In this document: positions 5,627 to 55,484 of the stretch, one piece after another
Layout: each line of letters opens with the position of its first letter
How positions within the stretch are numbered: the stretch's first letter is position 1
From: an uncultured Acidobacteriaceae bacterium
GTDB lineage: Bacteria; Acidobacteriota; Terriglobia; Terriglobales; Acidobacteriaceae
Assembly: GCA_963753005.1 (NCBI GenBank)
Contig: CAVWAM010000001.1
Span: 457,773 to 521,772 of the forward strand
DNA: 64,000 nucleotides
Reading direction: 5' to 3'
Made by a program: the position numbers and the translations under genes
Notes under the pieces: generated by a model
Told to the model about the DNA's origin: nothing
Database searches by the model: none
Seen by the model: only the letters and a program-made list of their open reading frames with translations

Positions 5627-6085
5627 ATGGGGGATTATCGCCAACACGCGCTGGACGGCGCCTCGGCTGTCGACCTTGTCGTGGCGCTCTACGACGGCAT
5701 CATCCGCTTTTTGTATGCGGCCATTGCGGCGGTCGATCGCGGCGACGCCGACGGCCGCAGAGCCGCGGTCAAGCGCGCGCTTGACATCATCATTCATCTG
5801 CAGGCGCGGCTGCGCATGGATATGGGCGGCCGGCCGGCCCAGGCGCTCAGCGATTTCTATGCCGCCATCTTCGCCCAGGTTCTGCAGGCATCGCAGTCGG
5901 CCTCCAGGGCGAAATTCGAGCATGCCATCGCCTGCGTGAAGAACGTGCGCGACGCCTGGCGCGAAGTGGCCAAGGATCCGGAGGCAAACTCCGTCTCGCC
6001 GCGCGTGCTCGTCATGCCGCAGCCCGCGCCGCTGAGCGCCGAAACGGCGTTGGATGCGCCTGGATCGTCAAGCTGGACGGCCTGA
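5627..6085 (+). CDS. fliS: Flagellin-specific chaperone FliS
   Basis: 152 aa. AVDLVVALYDGIIRFLYAAIAAVDRGD...RALDIIIHLQARL...LSDFYAAIFAQVL is FliS-like. Sits directly after fliD. Confidence 0.85.
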   Translation: MGDYRQHALDGASAVDLVVALYDGIIRFLYAAIAAVDRGDADGRRAAVKRALDIIIHLQARLRMDMGGRPAQALSDFYAAIFAQVLQASQSASRAKFEHAIACVKNVRDAWREVAKDPEANSVSPRVLVMPQPAPLSAETALDAPGSSSWTA

Positions 6086-6118
6086 CTCGAGCGCCAGCTC
6101 GCCGGCTCTCTGTCTTCC

Positions 6119-6184
6119 AGCTCCGCCAACTCCGCTAACCCCGCCAACTCCGCTAACCCCGCCAACTCCGCTCGCCCCGCCGCC
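6119..6184. repeat. Tandem array of 9-bp units (CTCCGCCAA/CTCCGCTAA/CCCCGCCAA)
   Basis: agCTCCGCCAACTCCGCTAACCCCGCCAACTCCGCTAACCCCGCCAACTCCGCTCGCCCCGCCGCC. It fills the convergent gap between fliS and the ABC exporter and ends at the exporter's stop codon. Confidence 0.9.
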
Positions 6185-8031
6185 TATCCCGCGACCGTCA
6201 GCTCCTCTTCGAGTTGCTGCTTCTGATAGAGGCTTGCGTAGTAACCGTCGAGTGCCAGCAGTTCCTCGTGCCGTCCGATCTCGACGATCATGCCCTTGTC
6301 GAGCACCGCGATGCGGTCGGCGTTGCGCACCGTCGACACGCGGTGCGAGATGAGGAGGGTGGTTGTGTTGGCCGTGTAATTGCGCAGACCTCCAAGAATC
6401 CGCTCTTCCGTGTAGGTGTCTACGCTGGCCAGTGCGTCGTCGAGGATCAGGATGGCGGGGCGGCGCAACAACGCACGGGCGATGGCCGAGCGCTGTTTTT
6501 GCCCGCCGGAGAGCGTGACGCCGCGTTCGCCCACCATGGTTTCAAAGCCCTGCGGAAATTCCTCGAACTCCCGCCGGATGTGCGCTGCACCGGCCGCTTC
6601 CAGCAGCTCTTCGGCGCCGGCGCGAGGCGCCCCAAAGGCCAGGTTTTCGCGGATGGTTTCGCTGAACAGGAAGGTTTCCTGCGGCACCATGCCGATGTTG
6701 CGGCGCAGCACGGCCAGCGGGTAATCGCGGACCGGCCGCCCATCGATCAGGAGCGATCCTTGAGGCGCTTCGTAGAGGCGCGTGATCAAATTTACCAGCG
6801 TGGACTTGCCGCAACCGGTGGGGCCTACGATGGCCAGGCTCGACCCCGCGGGAATGTGGAGCGTGATGTCGCGTAGCACCGGGGTCCCCACGGACGGACC
6901 TTTGTCCGTGGGGTGGAGTACCGGGGTCCCCACGAACAGGTCTTCGTTCGTGGGGTGCAGCGCCGGGCTTTGATCGCGGTCCTCGCCGTAGCCGAACGTC
7001 AGATGACGGAATTCGATCTCGCCCTGCAGTTGGTGATCGGCCAGGATCGCGGGATCGGCGGAGCGGTCATCGATTCCCGGCTCGGCCTTGAGCAATTCGT
7101 CGATGCGCTTCACCGAAGCGGTGCCGCGCTGGAAGATGTTGATCACCCAGCCCACGGCGATGATGGGCCAGATCAGCAGGATCATGTAGGTGTTGAAGGC
7201 GACGAACTGGCCGACCGATATGCGGTGCGCAAGGACCTGGTGCCCGCCGGCCAGCAACGTAATCACCATCGACACGCCAAGGATGAACTCGAGCGTGGGC
7301 CACAACATGCCCATCAGTTGCACCAAGCGCAGCGCGCGCCCGATGTATTGCCGGTTGAGCCGCTCGAAGAGGCCGATCTGCGACTCTTCGCGCGCGAAGG
7401 CCCGGATCAGCCGCACGCCCGAGTAGTTTTCCTGCGCCTGCGCGGAGATGTCGGAGAAGCTGGCCTGGATGCGCTCGAAGCGCTCGTGAATCTTGCGCCC
7501 TAGATACTGGATCAGGATGCTGGCCAGCGGCATGGGCGCCAGCGCCACCAGCGTCAGATAAGGACTGATCCTCAGCATGAAGAACAGCGCGAAGACGCTG
7601 AGGAAGACTGTGTTGGCGCTGTACATCAGAGCTGGGCCGAGCAGCATGCGCACGGCGTTCAGGTCGTTGGTCATGCGCGCCATGATGTCGCCGGTGCGGT
7701 AGCGCTGGTAGAAGCCCGAGTCCTGGATTTCCAGCTTGCGGAAGAGGTCGTTGCGCAGGTCGAATTCGATTTCGCGCGAAATGCCGATCAGGATCCAGCG
7801 TTGCGCATAGAGAAAGACGCCCTTCGCCAGGCTGATGCCGACCAGAATCAACGCAAACAGCAGAATGAGTTTCCCGGTGGTCCCTTTCTCGATCCGGTCC
7901 ACGGCCATGCCCAGAACTCTCGGAAACTGCACCGCGACGATATTCGTGGCCACGCACGCCAGCGTGCCCCGCACGTATCCCCAGCGGTAGCGGCGCATGT
8001 ATTTGTAAAGAGGGGCGAGGTCGCCGAGCAT
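6184..8031 (-). CDS. ABC exporter, fused permease and ATPase (MsbA/multidrug type half-transporter)
   Basis: 615 aa with a 6-TM domain and an NBD carrying Walker A GPTGCGKST, signature LSGGQKQR and Walker B ILILDDA. It carries an in-frame repeat insertion (see 6879-6962). Confidence 0.9.
   Translation of the reverse strand: MLGDLAPLYKYMRRYRWGYVRGTLACVATNIVAVQFPRVLGMAVDRIEKGTTGKLILLFALILVGISLAKGVFLYAQRWILIGISREIEFDLRNDLFRKLEIQDSGFYQRYRTGDIMARMTNDLNAVRMLLGPALMYSANTVFLSVFALFFMLRISPYLTLVALAPMPLASILIQYLGRKIHERFERIQASFSDISAQAQENYSGVRLIRAFAREESQIGLFERLNRQYIGRALRLVQLMGMLWPTLEFILGVSMVITLLAGGHQVLAHRISVGQFVAFNTYMILLIWPIIAVGWVINIFQRGTASVKRIDELLKAEPGIDDRSADPAILADHQLQGEIEFRHLTFGYGEDRDQSPALHPTNEDLFVGTPVLHPTDKGPSVGTPVLRDITLHIPAGSSLAIVGPTGCGKSTLVNLITRLYEAPQGSLLIDGRPVRDYPLAVLRRNIGMVPQETFLFSETIRENLAFGAPRAGAEELLEAAGAAHIRREFEEFPQGFETMVGERGVTLSGGQKQRSAIARALLRRPAILILDDALASVDTYTEERILGGLRNYTANTTTLLISHRVSTVRNADRIAVLDKGMIVEIGRHEELLALDGYYASLYQKQQLEEELTVAG
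6879..6962. mobile_element. Two tandem 42-bp hairpin units inside the ABC exporter CDS
   Basis: CCGGGGTCCCCACGGAC-ggaccttt-GTCCGTGGGGTGGAGTA followed by CCGGGGTCCCCACGAAC-aggtcttc-GTTCGTGGGGTGCAGCG. Each has a perfect 10-bp stem. Translated in-frame as LHPTNEDLFVGTPV and LHPTDKGPSVGTPV. Confidence 0.8.
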
Positions 8032-8131
8032 GGTTCTATTTTACGATTGATGCCACTCCAACTAAATCCGACGCAGAAAACCGCTCAGTTCTTCATCTCA
8101 TCGCGATCCGCTCTCCAAAAAATCCCGCCCA

Positions 8132-8190
8132 CTGTTCCCTGTTCCCTGTTCCCTGTTCCCTGATCCCTGTTCCCTGTTCCCTGTTCCCTG
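8132..8190. repeat. Heptamer tandem array (CTGTTCC)n, equal to (GGAACAG)n on the minus strand
   Basis: Eight consecutive 7-bp units, one variant being CTGATCC. It ends 6 nt from the lptFG stop codon (8197). The G-rich strand is the lptFG sense strand. Confidence 0.95.
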
Positions 8191-8196
8191 TCTTTC

Positions 8197-10554
8197 TCAC
8201 GTCGGCGTCCTCAGCAGCAGATACCCGCCCACCAGCCCGAACAACACATCGGCGGACCATGCGGCCATCGCTGCGGGCAGGTAATTCACATTGCCCATAG
8301 CCCCGAAAAGCCCATCTACCACCCAGTAGGCAAGCGCCACGGCGATGGCCACGGCGATGCCGGCGAGCGAGCCTCGGCGGCCCATCGACAGCGCAAAGGG
8401 AATCGCCAGCACCGCCATGACCACAGCAATCAGCGGGAAGGCGAGCTTGTGCCACAGGGCGACGCTCAGGCGCTTGGTGTCGAAGCCGCTTTGCCTCAGG
8501 TCGCGGATGTAGCGGTCGAGCTGGCCAAAGCTCATCTCCTGCGATTGCAGATCCTCTTTCTTGAAGTAGTCCGGCCCTGGGTGGATTTCGGGAAACGATG
8601 TCTCGAGGAATGTCCGGTACGTCGTAACGTTGGCGCCCTGGATGCCGCGCGCCCACCCGTTCTCGAAGCGCCATGTGCCGGAATCGGCGTCCCATACGGC
8701 TCTCTTTGCAAAGATGCGCCGCGTCAGTTCGAAGGCCGAAGGATCGAACTCGAACACGGAAAGATTGGCGAACTCATTGCTGTCGGGATCGAAGAACTCG
8801 TAGTAGTAAATGCTGCCCGGCTCGCCGGGCAGCGGCTTGGGGCCAAAGATCCACTTCTGCTCGGGATGCAGGAACGTCTGCGGCGGCCGGCCCTTGATCA
8901 CGTTGCGCAACGCCTCCTGCCTGCGGTTGGCCTGCGGCAGATAGTACTGGTCGAAGAGGAAGAGGCTCACGGCCAGGCACGCCGTGATCGACACAATGGG
9001 AATCACCAACCGGTAGAGGCTGATGCCGGTGGCCTTCATGGCCACGATCTCGCTGTTGCGGTTGAGCACGCCGAAGGTTGCCAGTGCGGCGATCAGAACG
9101 GCCAGCGGCGCAATCTGGTAAAGCATGCTGGGAGTGAGATTCAACAGATACTCGCCCACGATGCCGAGCGCGATGTGGTTGCGCAGAATGTCGCCGATCA
9201 GATCGAAGAACGTAAAGACAATCATCAGCAGCACAAACCCGGCCAGAACCAGCAGGAACATGCCCACAAACTCGCGCACGATGTACTCGTCGAGGATGCG
9301 CGGAAAGATTCCGCGGGACCGTGCCTTAGCCGCTGCGCCGCCTCGCGTCTGGAATCTGTCGAGAAGTCCGCTGAGCGGGAATCCATCCGGCTTGACCGCG
9401 TCCGTGATTCTGGACGGCCGCGCGATCCACGCCGAGATGGCGCTCAGAATCCGGCCGCCCGTCGCCATCTGCCACAGCAGAAAGGTTCCCGCCGCGGCAA
9501 AGAGCAGGTTCGCCGACCACACCGCGAAAAAGGCTGGCAGTTTGCTCTGATGGCCGAGAGCAATGCCCGTGGACGAAAGAAAGTAGTAGACGAACACCAG
9601 CAGAATCGTGAACACGAATCCCGAACTCTTGCCGCCGCGGCGCGAGGCTACGCCCAGGGGAACGCCTACCAGCATCAGCACCAGGCAAGCGGCGGGAAAG
9701 GCGAACCGGTTGTGCAGTTCAATCAGGAATCGCTTGTCGCCGGGGCCGTGGATGCGGCCGAGCAACGCGCTCAAGGGCATGGCATACAGCGCCGTGTCCA
9801 TGCGCCCCAGGTGCACGTCGTTCTGCTGCCCCAGCACCAGCGGCAGATCGGTGGTCGTGAACGTGGAGATATTGGACTGCCCCGGCTGGTCGGCCACGGT
9901 TTCGTCGCGCACGCCGTCGCGCAGCCGCATCAGCAGTTCCTCCGTGTTGTCGGTCACCACGGTGGCGGAGGCGGCGGTAGTGATGATCGGATTGGCGGGG
10001 TCAGAGACGTCGGCCATAAAGACCTGGCGCCAGTTGGCCGCACCCGTGCCCGAACGCACGTCCTGCACATAGAGAACGAAATTGCGAAAGTCTTCGTAGA
10101 AGACGCGCGGCTCAATCTCGTAGGAGGCCTGCAACGTCTCCAGCGACTGCTGCAGATCGATGATCGCCTGGTTGGCGCGGGGCGCGAGATAAAGCGAGTT
10201 GCCCAGCCCCAGCAGCGTGCCCGCAACGGCCACAATCGACGCCACGCGCACAAAGTAGCCGATGCCCAGCCCCGACGCGCGCATGGCGATGATCTCGCTG
10301 TCCGAGGCCAGCCGGCTCAGGCCCAGAAGCACGCCCCACAGCACCGCCATGGGAATCGTCACTTTGAACAGATTGGGCAGCGTGAACAGGAAAACCTGCG
10401 CCGCGTCGGCCCACGTCGAGCTGCTCCGCACCACCACCTCCAGGATGTGCGGCAGCAGCGGCATGAACAGAATGAACGTGAAGAGCGCGCAGCCGATCAG
10501 CGTGAGGGAGAGAATCTCGCCGAGAATGTAGCGGGTGAGGATGCGCACAAACAT
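8197..10554 (-). CDS. lptFG: Fused LptF-LptG-like LPS export permease (two YjgP/YjgQ halves in one ORF)
   Basis: 785 aa. The first half starts MFVRILTRYILGEILSLTLIGCALFTFILF. The second half starts near residue 410 with FPRILDEYIVREFVGMFLLVLAGFVLLMIVFTFFDLIGD. Both starts look like LptF/G N-termini, and each half is about 390 aa. Confidence 0.8.
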   Translation of the reverse strand: MFVRILTRYILGEILSLTLIGCALFTFILFMPLLPHILEVVVRSSSTWADAAQVFLFTLPNLFKVTIPMAVLWGVLLGLSRLASDSEIIAMRASGLGIGYFVRVASIVAVAGTLLGLGNSLYLAPRANQAIIDLQQSLETLQASYEIEPRVFYEDFRNFVLYVQDVRSGTGAANWRQVFMADVSDPANPIITTAASATVVTDNTEELLMRLRDGVRDETVADQPGQSNISTFTTTDLPLVLGQQNDVHLGRMDTALYAMPLSALLGRIHGPGDKRFLIELHNRFAFPAACLVLMLVGVPLGVASRRGGKSSGFVFTILLVFVYYFLSSTGIALGHQSKLPAFFAVWSANLLFAAAGTFLLWQMATGGRILSAISAWIARPSRITDAVKPDGFPLSGLLDRFQTRGGAAAKARSRGIFPRILDEYIVREFVGMFLLVLAGFVLLMIVFTFFDLIGDILRNHIALGIVGEYLLNLTPSMLYQIAPLAVLIAALATFGVLNRNSEIVAMKATGISLYRLVIPIVSITACLAVSLFLFDQYYLPQANRRQEALRNVIKGRPPQTFLHPEQKWIFGPKPLPGEPGSIYYYEFFDPDSNEFANLSVFEFDPSAFELTRRIFAKRAVWDADSGTWRFENGWARGIQGANVTTYRTFLETSFPEIHPGPDYFKKEDLQSQEMSFGQLDRYIRDLRQSGFDTKRLSVALWHKLAFPLIAVVMAVLAIPFALSMGRRGSLAGIAVAIAVALAYWVVDGLFGAMGNVNYLPAAMAAWSADVLFGLVGGYLLLRTPT

Positions 10555-10614
10555 GCCCTGCGCTTAGTTTAGCGTGCCGCCTCGCCGGCGCGGTACATTG
10601 ATGGTGCCTGGCCG

Positions 10615-10658: not shown

Positions 10659-10729
10659 ACAATATAACTGCGGCTTTAGCCGCTGTGGGATGTTCCTTTG
10701 CAACTGACCCGTTTGGAGCGGTTGGTTGA

Positions 10730-10766
10730 CTCGCCAACTCGCTAACTCGCCAACTCGCTAACTTGC
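10730..10766. repeat. Tandem array of 8-bp units (CTCGCCAA/CTCGCTAA)
   Basis: CTCGCCAACTCGCTAACTCGCCAACTCGCTAACTTGCC. The copA stop codon (10742-10744) and its last ~7 codons lie inside the array. Confidence 0.9.
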
Positions 10767-13078
10767 CGTATTTCCGGCTGCCACCCTCGCAGCCGCAAAC
10801 TGTTCCCCAGCACGCACACCGAGCTCATCGCCATCGCCGCGGCGGCCAGCCACGGCGTGAGCAGAAGGTGAAACGCGGGATACAGCAGCCCGGCGGCAAG
10901 TGGAATGCCAATCAGGTTGTAGCCCACCGCCCATCCCAGGTTCTGCCGCATGATCCGCAGCGTCTGGCGCGCCAGCGCCAGCGCGGCCGGAATCCCGCCC
11001 GGCTCCGTGCGCAGCAGCAGCACGTCTCCGGCCTCCTGCGCCAGGTCCGCGCCCGTCCCCATCGCGATGCCCGCGTCCGCCTGCGCCAACGCCGCCGCAT
11101 CGTTGATCCCGTCGCCCACCATCGCGATCCGCAGCCCAGCCTTCTGCATCTCGCGAATGCGCGCCAGTTTCCCCGCCGGATCGAGGCTGGCTTCCACCTC
11201 CGTGATTCCCGCCTGCCTCGCGATCGGCGCCGCCGCCTCGGCCGAGTCGCCGGTCAGCATCAGCACCCGAAGCCCCGCTTGACGCAGCGTAGCCATCGCA
11301 CTCGCCGCCTCCGGCCGCAGCGCATCGCGCGCATCGAAATACGCGGCAGGCGCGTTGTCCAATGCCATCCACAACCGCGTCACGCCCGGCTCCGCAACCT
11401 CAACATTGCCCGGAAGCGCGATCCCAAACTCCCGGAACATCGCCTCATTCCCCAAAAGGCAATCGTGCCCTTCCACGCGCGCGGTCAGGCCGCGGCCGGG
11501 CAAAATCTGCGCATCCTCCGCCGCCCTCCACTCGATCCCCCGCCCGCGCGCGGCATCGACAATTGCATGCGCCAGCGGATGATTCGATCGCTCCTCCGCC
11601 GCAGCCGCTATCCGCAGCAGCTCGTATTCTCGCTCCCTAGTCCCTACGTCCCTAGTCCCTGCCGGGGTCCCCGGCGAGCGGTCCGTGCTCGCTGGGGTGG
11701 CTAGTCCCTGTACTTTTTCCAGCACCGGCCGCCCCACCGTCAGCGTCCCCGTCTTGTCCAGCACAATCGCGTCCAGATGCCCCAGCCGCTCCAGCGCCTC
11801 GCCGCCCTTGAACAGCACGCCAAGCTGCGCGCCTCGGCCCACGGCCACCGTCAGCGCGGCAGGCACGGCCAGGCCCATCGCGCACGGGCACGCGATAACC
11901 AGCACCGCCACGGTATTCGCCAGCGCCGGCGGCAGCGAGCGCGCCGCCACGAGCCACGCCACAAACGTGATCGCCGCCAGCCCCAGCACCACCGGCACAA
12001 AAATCGCGCTGGCGCGGTCGGCCAGCCGTTCCATCGGCGCGCGCGAGCTTTGCGCCTGGTCCACCATCCGCGCAATCTGCGCGATCACCGTCTGCTCGCC
12101 CAGCGACTCCGCCCGGCAAACCACCGCGCCGTCGTAGTTCAGCGAACCCGCCAGCACGCGCCCGCCCACGCCGCGCTCCAGCGGCGTCGGCTCGCCCGTC
12201 AGCATGGACTCGTCCACCGTCGTGCGCCCCTCCAGGATCGTCGCGTCCACCGGGAAGCGCTCGCCGGGCAGAACCACCACGCTGTCGCCCGGCCGCACCT
12301 CATCGAGCGGCACGACGGTCTCGACGCCATCCACCAGGCGCCGCGCGGTCACCGGCCGCAGCCGCGAAAGTGAATCGAGCGCCGCCAGCGCTCTGCGTTT
12401 CGCTCGCCCTTCCAGCGCCTTGCCCAGCAGCAGAAAGCCGAGAATCAGCAGAACCGCGTCGTAATAAATCTCGCGTCCCCGCTCTGGCGCCACCGTCGCA
12501 TACGCCGAATACACGAACGCCACTGCGGTCCCCAGGCTCACCAGCGTGTTCATGTTGGTCGAGCCGTGGCGCAGAGCGCGCAGCGCGCTCGCATAGATCC
12601 CGCGCCCCGCCCAGGCGGCAACCACCGCCGTCATCGCCAGCAGAAACCAGCGCACACCGTCCGCCGGCAGCGCATAAAGCCACGGAAGCAGGCGCATCGC
12701 CAGGCGGTCCGGCCCGCTCATCTCGGTTCCCAGTGGCATGGCCAGCAGCATCGCCACAAATCCCGCCGCCAGCGTCACCCCCGCCTTCAAGTCCGCGCCC
12801 GCCGCCGCATCCTCGGCCCGCGCTGCTCCCTCGCCCGTGCGCGGCAACACGGCATCGTACCCCGCTCCGCGAATCGCTGCCACCAACTGCTCGGGCGCGG
12901 CCAGCGCCGGGTCAAACACCACGCTGGCCCGATGCGCCATCAGGTCCACGCGCGCTTGCTCCACGCCCGCCGTCGCGCGCAGCGCCTCCTCCACGTGATG
13001 CTGGCACGAGGCACAGGTCATGCCCAGGACCGGTAGGGTTAGCGATTCTCTAGTGTGCGCGGCCACGACTGGCTCCAA
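10742..13078 (-). CDS. copA: Copper-translocating P1B-type ATPase
   Basis: 778 aa. N-terminal HMA domain GMTCASC, then CPC in a TM helix, DKTGTLT, SNHPLA and GDGINDAAAL. Carries an in-frame repeat insertion (11634-11710). Confidence 0.95.
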   Translation of the reverse strand: MEPVVAAHTRESLTLPVLGMTCASCQHHVEEALRATAGVEQARVDLMAHRASVVFDPALAAPEQLVAAIRGAGYDAVLPRTGEGAARAEDAAAGADLKAGVTLAAGFVAMLLAMPLGTEMSGPDRLAMRLLPWLYALPADGVRWFLLAMTAVVAAWAGRGIYASALRALRHGSTNMNTLVSLGTAVAFVYSAYATVAPERGREIYYDAVLLILGFLLLGKALEGRAKRRALAALDSLSRLRPVTARRLVDGVETVVPLDEVRPGDSVVVLPGERFPVDATILEGRTTVDESMLTGEPTPLERGVGGRVLAGSLNYDGAVVCRAESLGEQTVIAQIARMVDQAQSSRAPMERLADRASAIFVPVVLGLAAITFVAWLVAARSLPPALANTVAVLVIACPCAMGLAVPAALTVAVGRGAQLGVLFKGGEALERLGHLDAIVLDKTGTLTVGRPVLEKVQGLATPASTDRSPGTPAGTRDVGTREREYELLRIAAAAEERSNHPLAHAIVDAARGRGIEWRAAEDAQILPGRGLTARVEGHDCLLGNEAMFREFGIALPGNVEVAEPGVTRLWMALDNAPAAYFDARDALRPEAASAMATLRQAGLRVLMLTGDSAEAAAPIARQAGITEVEASLDPAGKLARIREMQKAGLRIAMVGDGINDAAALAQADAGIAMGTGADLAQEAGDVLLLRTEPGGIPAALALARQTLRIMRQNLGWAVGYNLIGIPLAAGLLYPAFHLLLTPWLAAAAMAMSSVCVLGNSLRLRGWQPEIRQVSELAS
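11634..11710. mobile_element. Composite insertion inside copA: TAGGGAC-type short repeats plus a 39-bp hairpin flanked by a 10-bp direct repeat
   Basis: CTAGTCCCTG (11652-11661), then CCGGGGTCCCCGGCGAGCggtccgtGCTCGCTGGGGTGG (11662-11700), then CTAGTCCCTG (11701-11710). It is preceded by TCCCTAGTCCCTACGTCC. Translated as ...ATPASTDRSPGTPAGTRDVGTRE... Confidence 0.8.
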
Positions 13079-50754: not shown

Positions 50755-50810
50755 CAGGGAACAGGGACCAGGGACCAGGGATCATGGGTCAGGGGTCAGG
50801 GATTGGGGGC
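50755..50810. repeat. Heptamer array CAGGGAA/CAGGGAC/CAGGGAT/CAGGGGT
   Basis: CAGGGAACAGGGACCAGGGACCAGGGATCATGGGTCAGGGGTCAGGGATTGGGGG. Same family as 8132-8190 and 55440-55477. Confidence 0.95.
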
Positions 50811-54553: not shown

Positions 54554-55435
54554 ATGCAGTTGAATCACGCAATGTGGGCGATGAATGTGGCCGAAGTTGT
54601 CCTTTGGGCCGCGCTCGCCATCGTTTTCTGGAGCAAGGGGCTGCACCGCCGCTTCCCGATGGTGTGTGCTTACCTCACGTTGCGCGCGGTTGCTACGCCG
54701 CTGCTCGTGTTCCTGCTCTATGAAGAAGCCCGGCCGTGGGGGCATGCCAATCATCTGGGACAAATCTACGCCCTCGTTTTCTTTGCGGTCTATTTTGCGA
54801 GCACGGCGCTGCTGTATTTCATTTGCATCGAGATCTTCCGCGCGGCGCTGGCGGCGTTTCCCGGTATCTCGAAGCTGGCGCTCGTGGTCTTCCGCTGGGC
54901 CGCCGTGGTCGCATTCATCGTGAGTCTGCCCGCGGTTTCCTACACGCAGAGGGGGCTGCTTCTCATCGCCGACATCGCCTATGGAATGATTCACTCCATC
55001 AGCGTGCTCGAGTTGTGCCTGCTGGCGTTTCTGTGCCTGAGCATGAATGCGCTGCGGATGACGGTGCGCGATTTGTCTTTTGGCATCGCCCTGGGCTTTG
55101 GCCTGATGTGCTCCGGCGACTTAATTCTCGTCTCATTCAGCCCCCGTCTTACTTCTTATAACGACCCCGTGGAGTTCCTTTACGAGGCGATGATCCTGGC
55201 TGCGCTGGCTGTCTGGATGACGTATTGCATCCTTCCGGAGCCAGCTCGCAAGCCGGTGCTGTTGCCTGCAAGCTCGACCATCTATCGCTGGAACGAAATC
55301 GCTTCGGCACTGGGCCATACGGGGACCAAGGTGGCCGTGCCGCTGCCTGCCGGCAACTTCTTCCTCTCGGACGTGGAGCGCGTGGTGGAAAAGGTGCTGG
55401 TCCGGAATATGAGGGGGCACGAAGCGGAGACGTAG
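54554..55435 (+). CDS. Hypothetical 7-TM membrane protein
   Basis: 293 aa. Seven hydrophobic helices by eye and a ~60-aa soluble tail. No catalytic or output motif recognised. Confidence 0.6.
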   Translation: MQLNHAMWAMNVAEVVLWAALAIVFWSKGLHRRFPMVCAYLTLRAVATPLLVFLLYEEARPWGHANHLGQIYALVFFAVYFASTALLYFICIEIFRAALAAFPGISKLALVVFRWAAVVAFIVSLPAVSYTQRGLLLIADIAYGMIHSISVLELCLLAFLCLSMNALRMTVRDLSFGIALGFGLMCSGDLILVSFSPRLTSYNDPVEFLYEAMILAALAVWMTYCILPEPARKPVLLPASSTIYRWNEIASALGHTGTKVAVPLPAGNFFLSDVERVVEKVLVRNMRGHEAET

Positions 55436-55439
55436 AAAG

Positions 55440-55477
55440 CAGGGAACAGGGAACAGGGAACAGGGATCAGGGAACAG
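55440..55477. repeat. Heptamer array (CAGGGAA)n
   Basis: CAGGGAACAGGGAACAGGGAACAGGGATCAGGGAACAG. It starts 4 nt after the stop codon of the 7-TM gene, and the G-rich strand is that gene's sense strand. Confidence 0.95.
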
Positions 55478-55484
55478 AACGACA

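What the first reader, a model, noticed from the sequence alone, without database searches (positions are those of the whole stretch)
8132..8190. Quadruplex-prone GGGAACA heptamer array starting 6 nt after the lptFG stop codon
Eight tandem heptamers lie here. On the lptFG sense (minus) strand they read (CAGGGAA)n, which gives GGG tracts separated by 4 nt. Four or more such tracts satisfy the standard G3-N1-7 quadruplex rule. The same repeat family recurs at 55440-55477 and 50755-50810. At both gene-proximal loci the G-rich strand is the sense strand of the gene that has just ended. That placement hints at a 3'-end function such as termination, pausing or mRNA stability, rather than random slippage. 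The array also lies about 100 bp upstream of the ABC exporter start, so length changes could alter that promoter.
Basis: partly seen in the sequence, partly recalled or inferred. Interest (0 to 1): 0.6.

Follow-up and report, generated by a model that had tools for sequence, protein, structure and literature searches.

The report
Oriented heptamer repeat behind lptFG stop
The (CAGGGAA)8 run after the lptFG stop codon is real, but it is one of about 450 strand-oriented 7-base repeat arrays in this peat acidobacterium; these arrays follow well-expressed genes, often pair into long RNA hairpins, and occur only in genomes that carry a small pentameric 'rRNA intervening-sequence' protein gene, so quadruplex formation is at most a side property.

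Summary
Observation confirmed. Window 8132-8191 holds 8.6 tandem CTGTTCC units, which read (CAGGGAA)n on the lptFG sense strand and start 6 nt after the TGA. Chance expectation is 0.

The genome (Terracidiphilus-like, 3.87 Mb) has about 450 heptad arrays that share an invariant YAG-N4 phase. Of arrays within 15 nt of a stop codon, 133 of 143 carry YAG on the sense strand.

The G-quadruplex reading does not generalise:
- The largest class (CAGCTTT) has no G tracts, yet follows the same placement rule and has the same 5-unit length mode.
- Only 46% of solo G-rich stop-adjacent arrays meet the G3N1-7 rule.

Other properties of the family:
- About 40% of arrays form convergent inverted pairs, which fold better as sense RNA (53:15).
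- Pairs fill nearly every gap of the ribosomal-protein super-operon.
- Arrays favour high-CAI genes (0.4% to 18% across deciles); lptFG is at the 93rd percentile.
- All 4 PF05635 (S23p/Avd-like pentamer) genes are bracketed by such pairs, one using CAGGGAA.
- Across 61 genera, arrays occur only where PF05635 occurs.

This scan had already seen the class and the S23p link in other genomes, and Rehm 2015 described G-rich heptamers in Xanthomonas and Nostoc. Verdict: a solo arm of an IVS-like heptad family; its function is unproven.

The parts
8132..8191 (-). Solo heptad array, (CAGGGAA)n on the minus strand: 8 full units, one of them a CAGGGAT variant. With the trailing CAGTGGG (from 8128) it makes nine phased YAG triplets. 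It has no complementary partner within 160 nt.
   Evidence: partner score 12/21 = background; no Watson-Crick fold, z=+1.17
8191..8196 (-). Purine-rich linker GAAAGA between the stop codon and the first CAG. The same stop + R-rich + CAG layout recurs at most stop-adjacent arrays and in the orthologous loci.
   Evidence: Coxiella IVS has AGAAGA followed by heptamers (PMC4990558)
8197..10554 (-). Fused lptF-lptG permease gene (785 aa), whose 3' end the array follows. CAI 0.64, 93rd percentile of the genome.
6184..8031 (-). ABC exporter (615 aa; ABC_membrane + ABC_tran) downstream. Its own stop codon abuts a 9-mer array of the same YAG type (6117-6184).
8038..8043 (-). TAAAAT, a -10-like hexamer 6 nt upstream of the exporter ATG, conserved as TAnAAT in orthologous loci. 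It implies an own, leaderless-type promoter for the exporter, 89 nt from the array.
   Evidence: sequence (inference; the simple promoter scan found no full sigma-70 match)
55433..55481 (+). Second CAGGGAA array of the window. Its first phased unit is the TAG stop codon of the upstream + strand gene. It is followed by a GC-rich palindrome.
50755..50810 (+). Third CAGGGAA/C/T array, in a convergent gap and not next to a stop codon.
10729..10767 (-). 8-mer array (TAGCGAGT type on the minus strand) at the copA stop codon. It follows the same sense-strand YAG rule.

Best explanation
The array is a solo arm of a genome-wide family of strand-oriented heptad arrays. In the forward orientation the unit is YAG-N4, preceded by a short purine-rich linker.

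In their complete form these arrays come as a convergent inverted pair around a 35-60 nt spacer, or around a small PF05635 gene. PF05635 is the S23p / '23S rRNA intervening-sequence protein' family, a homologue of DGR Avd; the X. campestris member is a homopentameric toroid. This is the architecture of a 23S rRNA intervening sequence, but placed directly after stop codons of well-expressed genes instead of in rRNA.

Shown here:
- the family exists;
- its orientation and stop-codon adjacency;
- the pairing of arrays, and the better folding of pairs as sense RNA;
- the bias towards high-CAI genes and ribosomal-protein operons;
- the bracketing of every PF05635 gene by such pairs;
- the restriction of arrays to genomes that carry PF05635.

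Inferred:
- The arrays are transcribed with the upstream gene.
- Paired arms make a double-stranded RNA stem that is processed or protected in the way IVS stems are, by RNase III (cleavage was shown for IVS in Coxiella, not here).
- Arrays are seeded and kept by an S23p-linked process together with slippage and gene conversion.
- Solo G-rich arms such as this one persist in the lptFG 3' UTR because a G-rich, C-poor, unpaired tail is tolerated on the mRNA strand.

This copy could also fold into an RNA G-quadruplex, but nothing in the family's rules requires that.
For: **Family and phase**
- YAG/CTR runs of at least 4 units number 183+195 at period 7, against 22 or fewer at periods 5, 6 and 8-12.
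- 452 arrays were found. Position 1 is C 64% / T 36%, A and G are invariant, and N4 is variable.

**Placement**
- 84% of arrays are intergenic, against 16% of the genome.
- 164 arrays have a stop within 15 nt on the 5' side.
- The sense strand carries YAG in 133 of 143 cases. By unit: 27:0 for CAGCTTT, 21:1 for CAGGGAA.
- 8- and 9-mers follow the same rule, 15:3 and 23:2.

**Pairs**
- There are 56 convergent against 9 divergent neighbour pairs; most gaps are 35-60 nt.
- 39% of arrays have a complementary arm 3' of them, against 5% with one 5' of them.
- Pairs fold at -40 to -68 kcal/mol.
- Sense RNA is more stable than antisense in 53 of 68 pairs, mean -6.1 kcal/mol, p=3e-7. Array-free spacers give -0.67.

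**Expression link**
- The share of genes with an array at the stop rises from 0.4% in the lowest CAI decile to 18.4% in the top decile, p=7e-26.
- lptFG is at the 93rd percentile.
- Array hairpins lie in most of the larger gaps of the S10-spc r-protein cluster.

**S23p link**
- All 4 PF05635 genes of this genome sit between inverted arrays. One pair uses CAGGGAA.
- In 33 PF05635 loci from about 30 genera, the flanks are complementary at 15/18 or better in 30. The same holds for 5 of 40 random small genes.
- Across 61 genera, arrays occur in 42 of 51 genomes with PF05635 and in 0 of 10 without it (Fisher 1e-6; Spearman 0.70 with copy number).
- The Coxiella IVS has an AGAAGA linker followed by (GACAGAT)n, with the RNase III cut at the first repeat (PMC4990558).
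- RNase III is encoded in this genome.

**This site**
- An array follows the lptFG stop in about 30 of the 33 closest orthologous loci, with different units. It does so even where the downstream gene differs. One species (L032) has the paired form there.
Against: - This copy has no partner arm, no enclosed gene and no predicted fold, so the stem-based mechanism cannot apply to it directly.
- No PF05635 gene lies in any of 80 lptFG loci.
- The spacers between paired arms are unrelated to each other, so gene-less pairs are not simple copies of one mobile element.
- Nine genomes have PF05635 but no long YAG array. The association is therefore one-directional.
- The genera are related, so the statistics overstate independence.
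- No RNA data could be obtained, so transcription, 3' ends and RNase III cleavage are all inferred.
- Gene calls are from my own simple caller. Start codons in particular are approximate.
- CAI is only a proxy for expression.
Confidence: 0.5

Rival explanations
1. G-quadruplex 3'-end element. The eight G3 tracts with 4-nt loops fold into an RNA or non-template-DNA quadruplex. That structure pauses RNA polymerase, terminates transcription or blocks 3' exonucleases at the end of lptFG.
For: - The sequence meets the (G3N1-7)x4 rule twice over.
- The G-rich strand is the mRNA strand here and in 51 of 57 stop-adjacent G-rich arrays.
- G-rich arrays are mostly solo (46 solo, 19 paired at stops), whereas G-poor ones are mostly paired (48:26). 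This would fit a G4 standing in for a hairpin.
- A U6 run lies 12 nt after the array.
- Related GGGAATC and GGGGAYT oligonucleotides form G4 in vitro (Rehm 2015, PMC4692102).
Against: - The CAGCTTT, TAGCTTC, CAGTGGT, TAGCCAG and 9-mer TAGCGGAGT arrays obey the same placement and orientation rules without four G3 tracts.
- The length mode is 5 units in both the G-rich and the G-poor class.
- Only 46% of solo G-rich stop-adjacent arrays are G4-competent, the same as paired ones at 47%.
- Orthologues of this very site carry TAGTGAT, TAGCCAG, CAGAGAA or TAGCTTC units.
- The U run is not conserved in orthologues.
Confidence: 0.12
2. Neutral simple-sequence repeat. The array is a product of replication slippage with a 7-nt preference. 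It has no function and no tie to S23p, and survives only where selection is weak, just beyond a stop codon.
For: - Units and copy numbers turn over quickly between species.
- In a relative about 92% identical, the 148-nt spacer is replaced by 113 other bases.
- Heptamer SSR excess in bacteria has been attributed to polymerase slippage (cited in PMC4692102).
- No fold, RNA family or terminator was found here.
Against: - The length distribution is peaked (184 arrays of 5 units against 31 of 6) rather than decaying.
- The YAG phase is invariant while N4 changes completely (of L013).
- The orientation is strict (133:10).
- Arrays are enriched 40-fold from the lowest to the highest CAI decile.
- The array persists at the same stop codon across a clade.
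- Arrays are restricted to genomes with PF05635.
Confidence: 0.18
3. Array of binding sites for a ring-shaped RNA- or ssDNA-binding protein, one YAG heptad per subunit. This would work like HutP on UAG-N4 repeats or TRAP on GAG/UAG repeats. The pentameric S23p is the obvious candidate, and binding would set the stability, processing or translation of the neighbouring cistrons.
For: - An invariant triplet with a variable 4-nt spacer is what such proteins read.
- The mode is exactly 5 units in all classes.
- The X. campestris homologue (2GSC, E=1.4e-20, five chains) is a homopentameric toroid.
- PF05635 is homologous to Avd (PMC10053308). That Avd binds nucleic acid and reverse transcriptase is from my memory, not from that paper.
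- The four paralogues here are each flanked by a different unit family.
- Arrays co-occur with PF05635.
Against: - No binding data exist for any S23p.
- Coxiella S23p seems not to be made in vivo.
- HutP and CsrA themselves are absent.
- This array has 8-9 units, not 5.
- Nine genomes have the gene but no long arrays.
Confidence: 0.15
4. Phase-variable promoter spacer. Unit gain or loss changes expression of the downstream ABC exporter.
For: The array lies 100 nt upstream of the exporter start, and SSR length is mutable.
Against: - The array is 89 nt from the conserved -10-like box, and so beyond the core promoter.
- The array-to-ATG distance varies from 49 to 435 nt among orthologues.
- The array stays with lptFG when the exporter is replaced by another gene.
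- The genome-wide rule ties arrays to stop codons, not to starts.
Confidence: 0.03

Closest known systems
G-rich heptamer SSRs of Xanthomonas (GGGAATC) and Nostoc PCC 7120 (GGGGAYT), Rehm et al. 2015 (PMC4692102)
   Same: - Tandem 7-nt units with a G3-4 tract.
- Strong intergenic bias.
- G-rich strand on the coding strand just after stops and on the non-coding strand just before starts.
- Under-represented between divergent genes.
- Inverted pairs noted.
- Rapid length and sequence change between relatives.
- Function unresolved.
   Different: - A different phylum (Acidobacteriota) and a different unit.
- Here the G-rich units are only one class of a YAG-phased family whose largest class has no G tract.
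- The preferred length is 5 units, not 4.
- The S23p link and the expression bias were not reported there.
23S rRNA intervening sequences carrying an S23p ORF (Coxiella, Leptospira, Xanthomonas; Warrier et al. 2016, PMC4990558)
   Same: - Stem of inverted repeats around a PF05635 gene.
- The 5' arm is made of a purine-rich linker followed by tandem CAG-containing heptamers whose number varies between strains.
- Sits in very highly transcribed RNA.
   Different: - Located after stop codons of protein genes and between cistrons, not in rRNA helices.
- Most copies, including this one, lack the ORF.
- This copy also lacks the second arm.
- RNase III cleavage is not shown here.
TAACTGA direct repeats of marine Beggiatoaceae, Cyanobacteria and Bacteroidetes (MacGregor 2015, PMC4679880); cyanobacterial STRR heptamers
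   Same: - Intergenic 7-mers of 2-6 copies, also inside ribosomal-protein operons.
- The complement reads CAGTTAT, a YAG-N4 unit.
- The forward orientation lies just upstream of starts, matching the 3'-arm position here.
   Different: - A single unit sequence.
- Described as direct repeats before start codons.
- Proposed to act in translation.
- No pairing or S23p link reported.
REP/BIME elements and RNase III sites between cistrons (e.g. phage T7 early mRNA) (from established knowledge)
   Same: Intercistronic or 3'-UTR stem-loops in operons that do not terminate transcription but shape mRNA processing and stability. REPs also sit close to stop codons.
   Different: - The arms here are tandem heptads with fast-changing sequence, not a conserved palindrome.
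- The associated gene is S23p, not a RAYT transposase.
- The solo array cannot form a stem.

Membership tests
G-rich heptamer SSR class (Rehm 2015) | Tandem 7-nt unit containing a G3+ tract, enriched between genes | tested here: met
   8.6 x CAGGGAA. 84% of period-7 arrays are intergenic, against 16% of the genome.
G-rich heptamer SSR class (Rehm 2015) | G-rich strand on the coding strand within 50 bp after a stop, and on the non-coding strand before a start | tested here: met
   Stop-adjacent: 21:1 for CAGGGAA, 133:10 for all units. Near starts the YAG strand is antisense, 36:10 within 15 nt.
G-rich heptamer SSR class (Rehm 2015) | Preference for four units (the minimum for a G4) | tested here: not met
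   The mode is 5 units in the G-rich class (59 of 144) and the G-poor class (95 of 198). This array has 8.
Canonical G-quadruplex motif | Four or more G3 tracts with loops of 1-7 nt | tested here: met
   Eight GGG tracts with AACA or ATCA loops. Only 46% of sister solo arrays meet this.
Canonical G-quadruplex motif | K+-dependent quadruplex fold of the RNA or DNA | not testable with these tools
   Needs CD, thioflavin-T or rG4-seq.
IVS-like S23p cassette | Two complementary inverted arms forming a long stem | tested here: not met
   For this copy, the best complementary match within 160 nt is 12/21, which is background, and the fold z-score is +1.17. The feature is met by about 40% of the family.
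IVS-like S23p cassette | PF05635 gene between the arms | tested here: not met
   None is present here or in 80 orthologous loci. The feature is met at 4 of 4 PF05635 genes of the genome and at 30 of 33 loci in other genera.
IVS-like S23p cassette | 5' arm made of a purine-rich linker followed by tandem CAG-containing heptamers | tested here: met
   TGA-GAAAGA-(CAGGGAA)8 here, against AGAAGA-(GACAGAT)3 in Coxiella.
IVS-like S23p cassette | Excision or cleavage by RNase III | not testable with these tools
   An RNase III gene is present. No RNA data were available.
Intrinsic (Rho-independent) terminator | GC-rich hairpin directly followed by a U tract | tested here: not met
   No terminator-like site in 7900-8400. 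Genome-wide, only 8 of 69 paired arrays have 6 or more T in the next 12 nt.
Phase-variable contingency SSR | Repeat inside an ORF or between core promoter elements, so that unit number switches expression | tested here: not met
   The array is 6 nt after a stop and 89 nt from the -10-like box. Its spacing to the exporter ATG is not conserved.
HutP/TRAP/CsrA-type repeat RNA sites | The cognate protein is encoded in the genome | tested here: not met
   PF09021 (HutP) and PF02599 (CsrA) were not found in a genome that is 100% complete. TRAP was not searched.

The most novel reading that the evidence does not exclude
Bacterial intergenic heptamer arrays, unexplained since the cyanobacterial STRRs, would be the cognate nucleic-acid sites of the pentameric S23p/Avd-like four-helix-bundle proteins. 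Five heptads would match five subunits. Each paralogue would recognise its own unit family. The protein would help seed or maintain array dyads at the 3' ends of the most transcribed genes, where the dyads act as IVS-like processing stems. The lptFG array would then be an S23p site of the CAGGGAA paralogue.
Probability: 0.22. Interest if true: 0.85.

Novelty: new member of a known kind. Interest (0 to 1): 0.58.

Why it matters
- Oriented heptamer arrays are common in several phyla, and no function has been found for them in 35 years.
- The quadruplex signal at bacterial gene ends can be a by-product of a broader repeat system. Genome-wide G4 censuses should control for that.
- The arrays track expression level and fill ribosomal-protein operons. 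This points to a role in, or at least strong tolerance by, mRNA processing.
- The arrays are tied to an orphan protein family (PF05635, also the DGR accessory protein Avd) that can be purified and tested.
- The arrays also matter for annotation: they set ORF boundaries, create false starts and break short-read assemblies.

Tried and rejected
- **RNA evidence.** The look-up of sequencing runs listed no RNA holder for window 6000-10600.
- **Strain comparison.** Read laying on four DNA runs found only relatives about 92% identical. No contig of the same strain spans the array, so no unit-number polymorphism could be read. The array bins attracted hundreds of unrelated contigs.
- **Rfam.** No family matched at E up to 1 in 7950-8350.
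- **Fold.** Folding the spacer gave no structure.
- **Promoter and terminator scan.** No hits.
- **Candidate repeat readers.** HutP and CsrA are absent.
- **Paired arrays as canonical terminators.** Rejected, because no U tract follows them and they sit inside r-protein operons.
- **Gene-less pairs as copies of one mobile element.** Rejected, because only 1 real match was found among 76 spacers.
- **Orientation set by replication strand.** Rejected, because both orientations occur in every 200-kb bin and the GC skew is noisy.
- **Purine-richness as the orientation rule.** Rejected in favour of the YAG phase: 75 of 137 by purine content against 133 of 143 by YAG.
- **Strict YAG detector on orthologues.** It under-counted (17 of 80). 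Inspection by lag-7/8 self-identity corrected this.
- **Reverse transcriptase.** One gene exists but lies far from any PF05635 gene.
- **Literature.** A search for heptanucleotide repeats in Acidobacteria found nothing.

Full report
**1. Observation**

Window 8132-8191 holds 8.6 copies of CTGTTCC (TRF score 113). On the minus strand the region reads TGA-GAAAGA-(CAGGGAA)3-CAGGGAT-(CAGGGAA)4-CAGTGGG. The TGA at 8197-8199 ends a 785-aa ORF with two LptF_LptG domains. A 615-aa ABC exporter starts at 8031.

**2. Organism and scale**

- The window lies in a 3.87-Mb, 61% GC, two-contig genome.
- LptFG relatives at 74-94% identity all come from Terracidiphilus/Acidobacteriaceae metagenome bins, mostly from peat.
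- TRF on the whole genome gives 509 period-7 rows, 267 of them with at least 4 copies. This is far above any other period larger than 3.
- With a self-trained ORF caller (3045 genes, 84% coding), 84% of period-7 arrays with at least 3 copies are intergenic.

**3. What the arrays have in common**

- Sorting by purine content gave no orientation rule at stops (75 of 137).
- Sorting each unit by the sense strand of the gene that ends next to it gave near-perfect consistency: AGCTTTC 27:0, AACAGGG 21:1, AGGGAGT 9:0, AGCTTCT 8:1.
- In that orientation every common unit starts with CAG or TAG.
- YAG (or its complement) recurring at exactly 7 nt for at least 4 units occurs 378 times. At periods 5, 6 and 8-12 it occurs 22 times or fewer on either strand.
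- In 452 phased arrays, position 1 is C (64%) or T (36%), positions 2-3 are invariant AG, and the last four positions vary: CTTT 62, GGAA 55, CTTC 28, GGAT 25, GGAG 22 and so on.
- Mixed arrays keep the phase across changes of unit, for example L013.
- 8-mers and 9-mers (TAGCGGAGT) obey the same sense-strand rule, 15:3 and 23:2.

**4. Placement**

- 164 arrays have a stop codon within 15 nt on their 5' side.
- Orientation there is 133 sense to 10 antisense.
- The linker between stop codon and first unit is purine-rich (GAAAGA, AAAG, AGAAA).
- Near start codons the YAG strand is antisense. This is the rule Rehm et al. reported for GGGAATC and GGGGAYT repeats (PMC4692102).
- Orientation does not follow chromosome halves.

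**5. Pairs**

- Neighbouring arrays are convergent 56 times and divergent 9 times, with most gaps at 35-60 nt.
- 39% of arrays have a complementary arm within 160 nt on the 3' side, against 5% on the 5' side.
- The pairs fold at -40 to -68 kcal/mol.
- Pairs explain the 'outward from both ORFs' rule. One arm touches the upstream stop, and the other ends just before the next gene's ribosome-binding site.
- In co-directional gene pairs the sense-strand RNA is more stable than the antisense RNA in 53 of 68 cases (mean -6.1 kcal/mol, p=3e-7). For 714 array-free spacers the figure is -0.67. This G-U asymmetry argues that the stem matters in RNA.
- The pairs are not classical terminators: only 8 of 69 have a U-rich tail.
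- Pairs occupy most of the larger gaps of the S10-spc ribosomal-protein cluster, whose genes I confirmed by Pfam.
- The spacers between arms are unrelated to one another.

**6. Expression link**

I built a codon adaptation index from the r-protein cluster and excluded that cluster from the test. Genes with an array at their stop have a median CAI of 0.606 against 0.522 for the rest (p=7e-26). The share of genes with such an array rises from 0.4% in the lowest decile to 18.4% in the highest. lptFG scores 0.64, the 93rd percentile.

**7. The quadruplex idea**

- This copy satisfies the G3N1-7 rule.
- The largest class (CAGCTTT/CAGCYTT, 198 arrays) has no G tracts, yet shares the placement, the orientation and the same sharp length mode of 5 units. 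The G-rich class (144 arrays) also peaks at 5.
- Half of the G-rich arrays have fewer than four G3 tracts.
- Among solo G-rich arrays at stops, 21 of 46 are G4-competent, the same fraction as among paired ones.
- One point favours the idea. G-rich arrays are mostly solo (46:19 at stops) and G-poor arrays are mostly paired (48:26). An intramolecular G4 could substitute for a stem.
- An equally simple reading is that an unpaired C-poor, G-rich tail is harmless in mRNA, while an unpaired C-rich or U-rich tail is not.
- I keep the quadruplex as a minor rival.

**8. This site in other species**

- In about 30 of the 33 closest orthologous loci (LptFG at 80% identity or more), a 7- or 8-mer array starts 3-10 nt after the stop.
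- The units differ: CAGGGAA, TAGGGAC, CAGTGGT, TAGTGAT, TAGCCAG, CAGAGAA, CGGTGAA, TAGCTTC, CAAGGGAG. The stop codon differs too.
- The array is present even where the downstream gene is not the exporter.
- One species (L032) has the paired form at this site.
- More distant relatives mostly lack the array.
- The exporter start is preceded by a conserved TAnAAT box 6 nt upstream (here 8038-8043). The distance from array to ATG varies from 49 to 435 nt.
- The array therefore belongs to the lptFG 3' end and is not part of the exporter's core promoter.
- In a metagenome contig from a relative about 92% identical, the 148-nt spacer is replaced by 113 other bases.

**9. The S23p lead**

A look-up of earlier notes of this scan showed that other agents had met the same class in other phyla. 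They had seen array dyads enclosing small four-helix-bundle '23S rRNA intervening-sequence protein' genes. I tested this here.

- The genome has four PF05635 genes. All four lie between convergent inverted arrays, and each pair uses a different unit family: CAGCTTT; an 8-mer TAGCGAGT/TAGCAAGT; TAGGGAG/TAGCCAG; and CAGGGAA, the unit of this finding.
- In 33 PF05635 loci from about 30 other genera of the family, the two flanks are complementary at 15 of 18 or better in 30. Most show visible heptads. The same measure is met by 5 of 40 random small genes.
- Across 61 genera, a YAGN4 x6 pattern is found in 42 of the 51 genomes that carry PF05635 and in none of the 10 without it (Fisher p=1e-6). Counts correlate with PF05635 copy number (Spearman 0.70). 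One of these genomes (G002) is unpublished; it contributes one row to these tallies and one locus (L099).
- The closest solved structure is X. campestris XCC0516 (2GSC, E=1.4e-20, five chains). It is described as a homopentameric toroid (PMC4990558).
- PF05635 is homologous to the DGR accessory protein Avd (PMC10053308).
- The Coxiella 23S rRNA intervening sequence has an AGAAGA stretch followed by three tandem GACAGAT heptamers, which are (CAGATGA)n in my phase. The RNase III cut falls at the first repeat, and the repeat number varies between strains. This is the linker-plus-YAG-heptad layout seen after lptFG.
- RNase III is encoded here.
- HutP and CsrA, known readers of repeated triplets, are absent.

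**10. Reading**

The array is a solo arm of an IVS-like heptad-array family linked to S23p, placed in the 3' UTR of a well-expressed gene.

- Shown: the family, its phase, its placement and orientation, pairing with an RNA-level signature, the expression bias, and the S23p association.
- Inferred: transcription of this copy, RNase III-type processing of pairs, any role of S23p in binding or seeding arrays, and the reason solo G-rich arms persist.
- The match between the five-unit length mode and the pentameric protein is my own speculation.

**11. Novelty**

- G-rich heptamer arrays with this placement rule are published for Xanthomonas and Nostoc.
- TAACTGA arrays inside r-protein operons are published for Beggiatoaceae (PMC4679880).
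- Heptamers in an S23p-bearing IVS are published for Coxiella.
- I found no paper describing the arrays in Acidobacteria. None of the papers I read connects genome-wide intergenic arrays to S23p.
- This scan had already noted the connection on other DNA.
- The finding itself is a new member of a known, unexplained kind.

Noticed in passing
G000:C1:1198000-1223000 (loci L081, L082): Most of the larger gaps between cistrons in the S10-spc ribosomal-protein cluster (S10, L3, L4, L2, S19, S3, L16, L14, L6, EF-Tu, EF-G) hold a roughly 100-nt hairpin made of two heptad arrays. The 5' arm starts 2-8 nt after the stop, and the 3' arm ends just before the next gene's Shine-Dalgarno sequence. In most bacteria these genes are tightly packed.
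   Followed up: partly
window 8032-8050 and loci L001-L080 upstream of the exporter ATG: A conserved AATCGTAnAATAGArCyATG motif places a TAnAAT -10-like box 6 nt before the ABC exporter start codon in most orthologues. This suggests a leaderless mRNA.
   Followed up: partly
window 6117-6184 and 10729-10767: Three consecutive minus-strand genes (copA, lptFG, ABC exporter) each end at an array of the same YAG type but with a different period (8, 7 and 9 nt). The copA stop lies inside its array.
   Followed up: partly
G000:C2:2178553-2178867, 1612813-1613130, 1038766-1039077, 1407598-1407912 (L083-L086): There are four PF05635 (S23p/Avd-like) genes, none of them in an rRNA gene. Each lies between host genes inside an array dyad with its own unit family. 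The third has a 14-unit alternating TAGGGAG/TAGCCAG arm.
   Followed up: yes
G000:C1:737096-737128: A TAGCTTC-type array directly follows the 3' end of a tRNA-like sequence (recognised by eye from its T-arm and acceptor end) on its sense strand. The placement rule may therefore follow transcript 3' ends and not only stop codons.
   Followed up: no
G000:C2:2043939-2044600: A single reverse-transcriptase (RVT_1) gene is matched in two adjacent pieces, possibly frameshifted. It is not near any S23p gene.
   Followed up: no
window 8118-8191: In four peat and soil metagenomes the array bins attract contig depth of about 66-1270, with unrelated loose ends. (CAGGGAA)n-type arrays are therefore abundant at many loci of many organisms in these habitats.
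   Followed up: no
loci L036, L039 downstream of lptFG: In two relatives the same site holds a hairpin built from GTGTGA/TCACAC hexamer runs instead of heptads.
   Followed up: no
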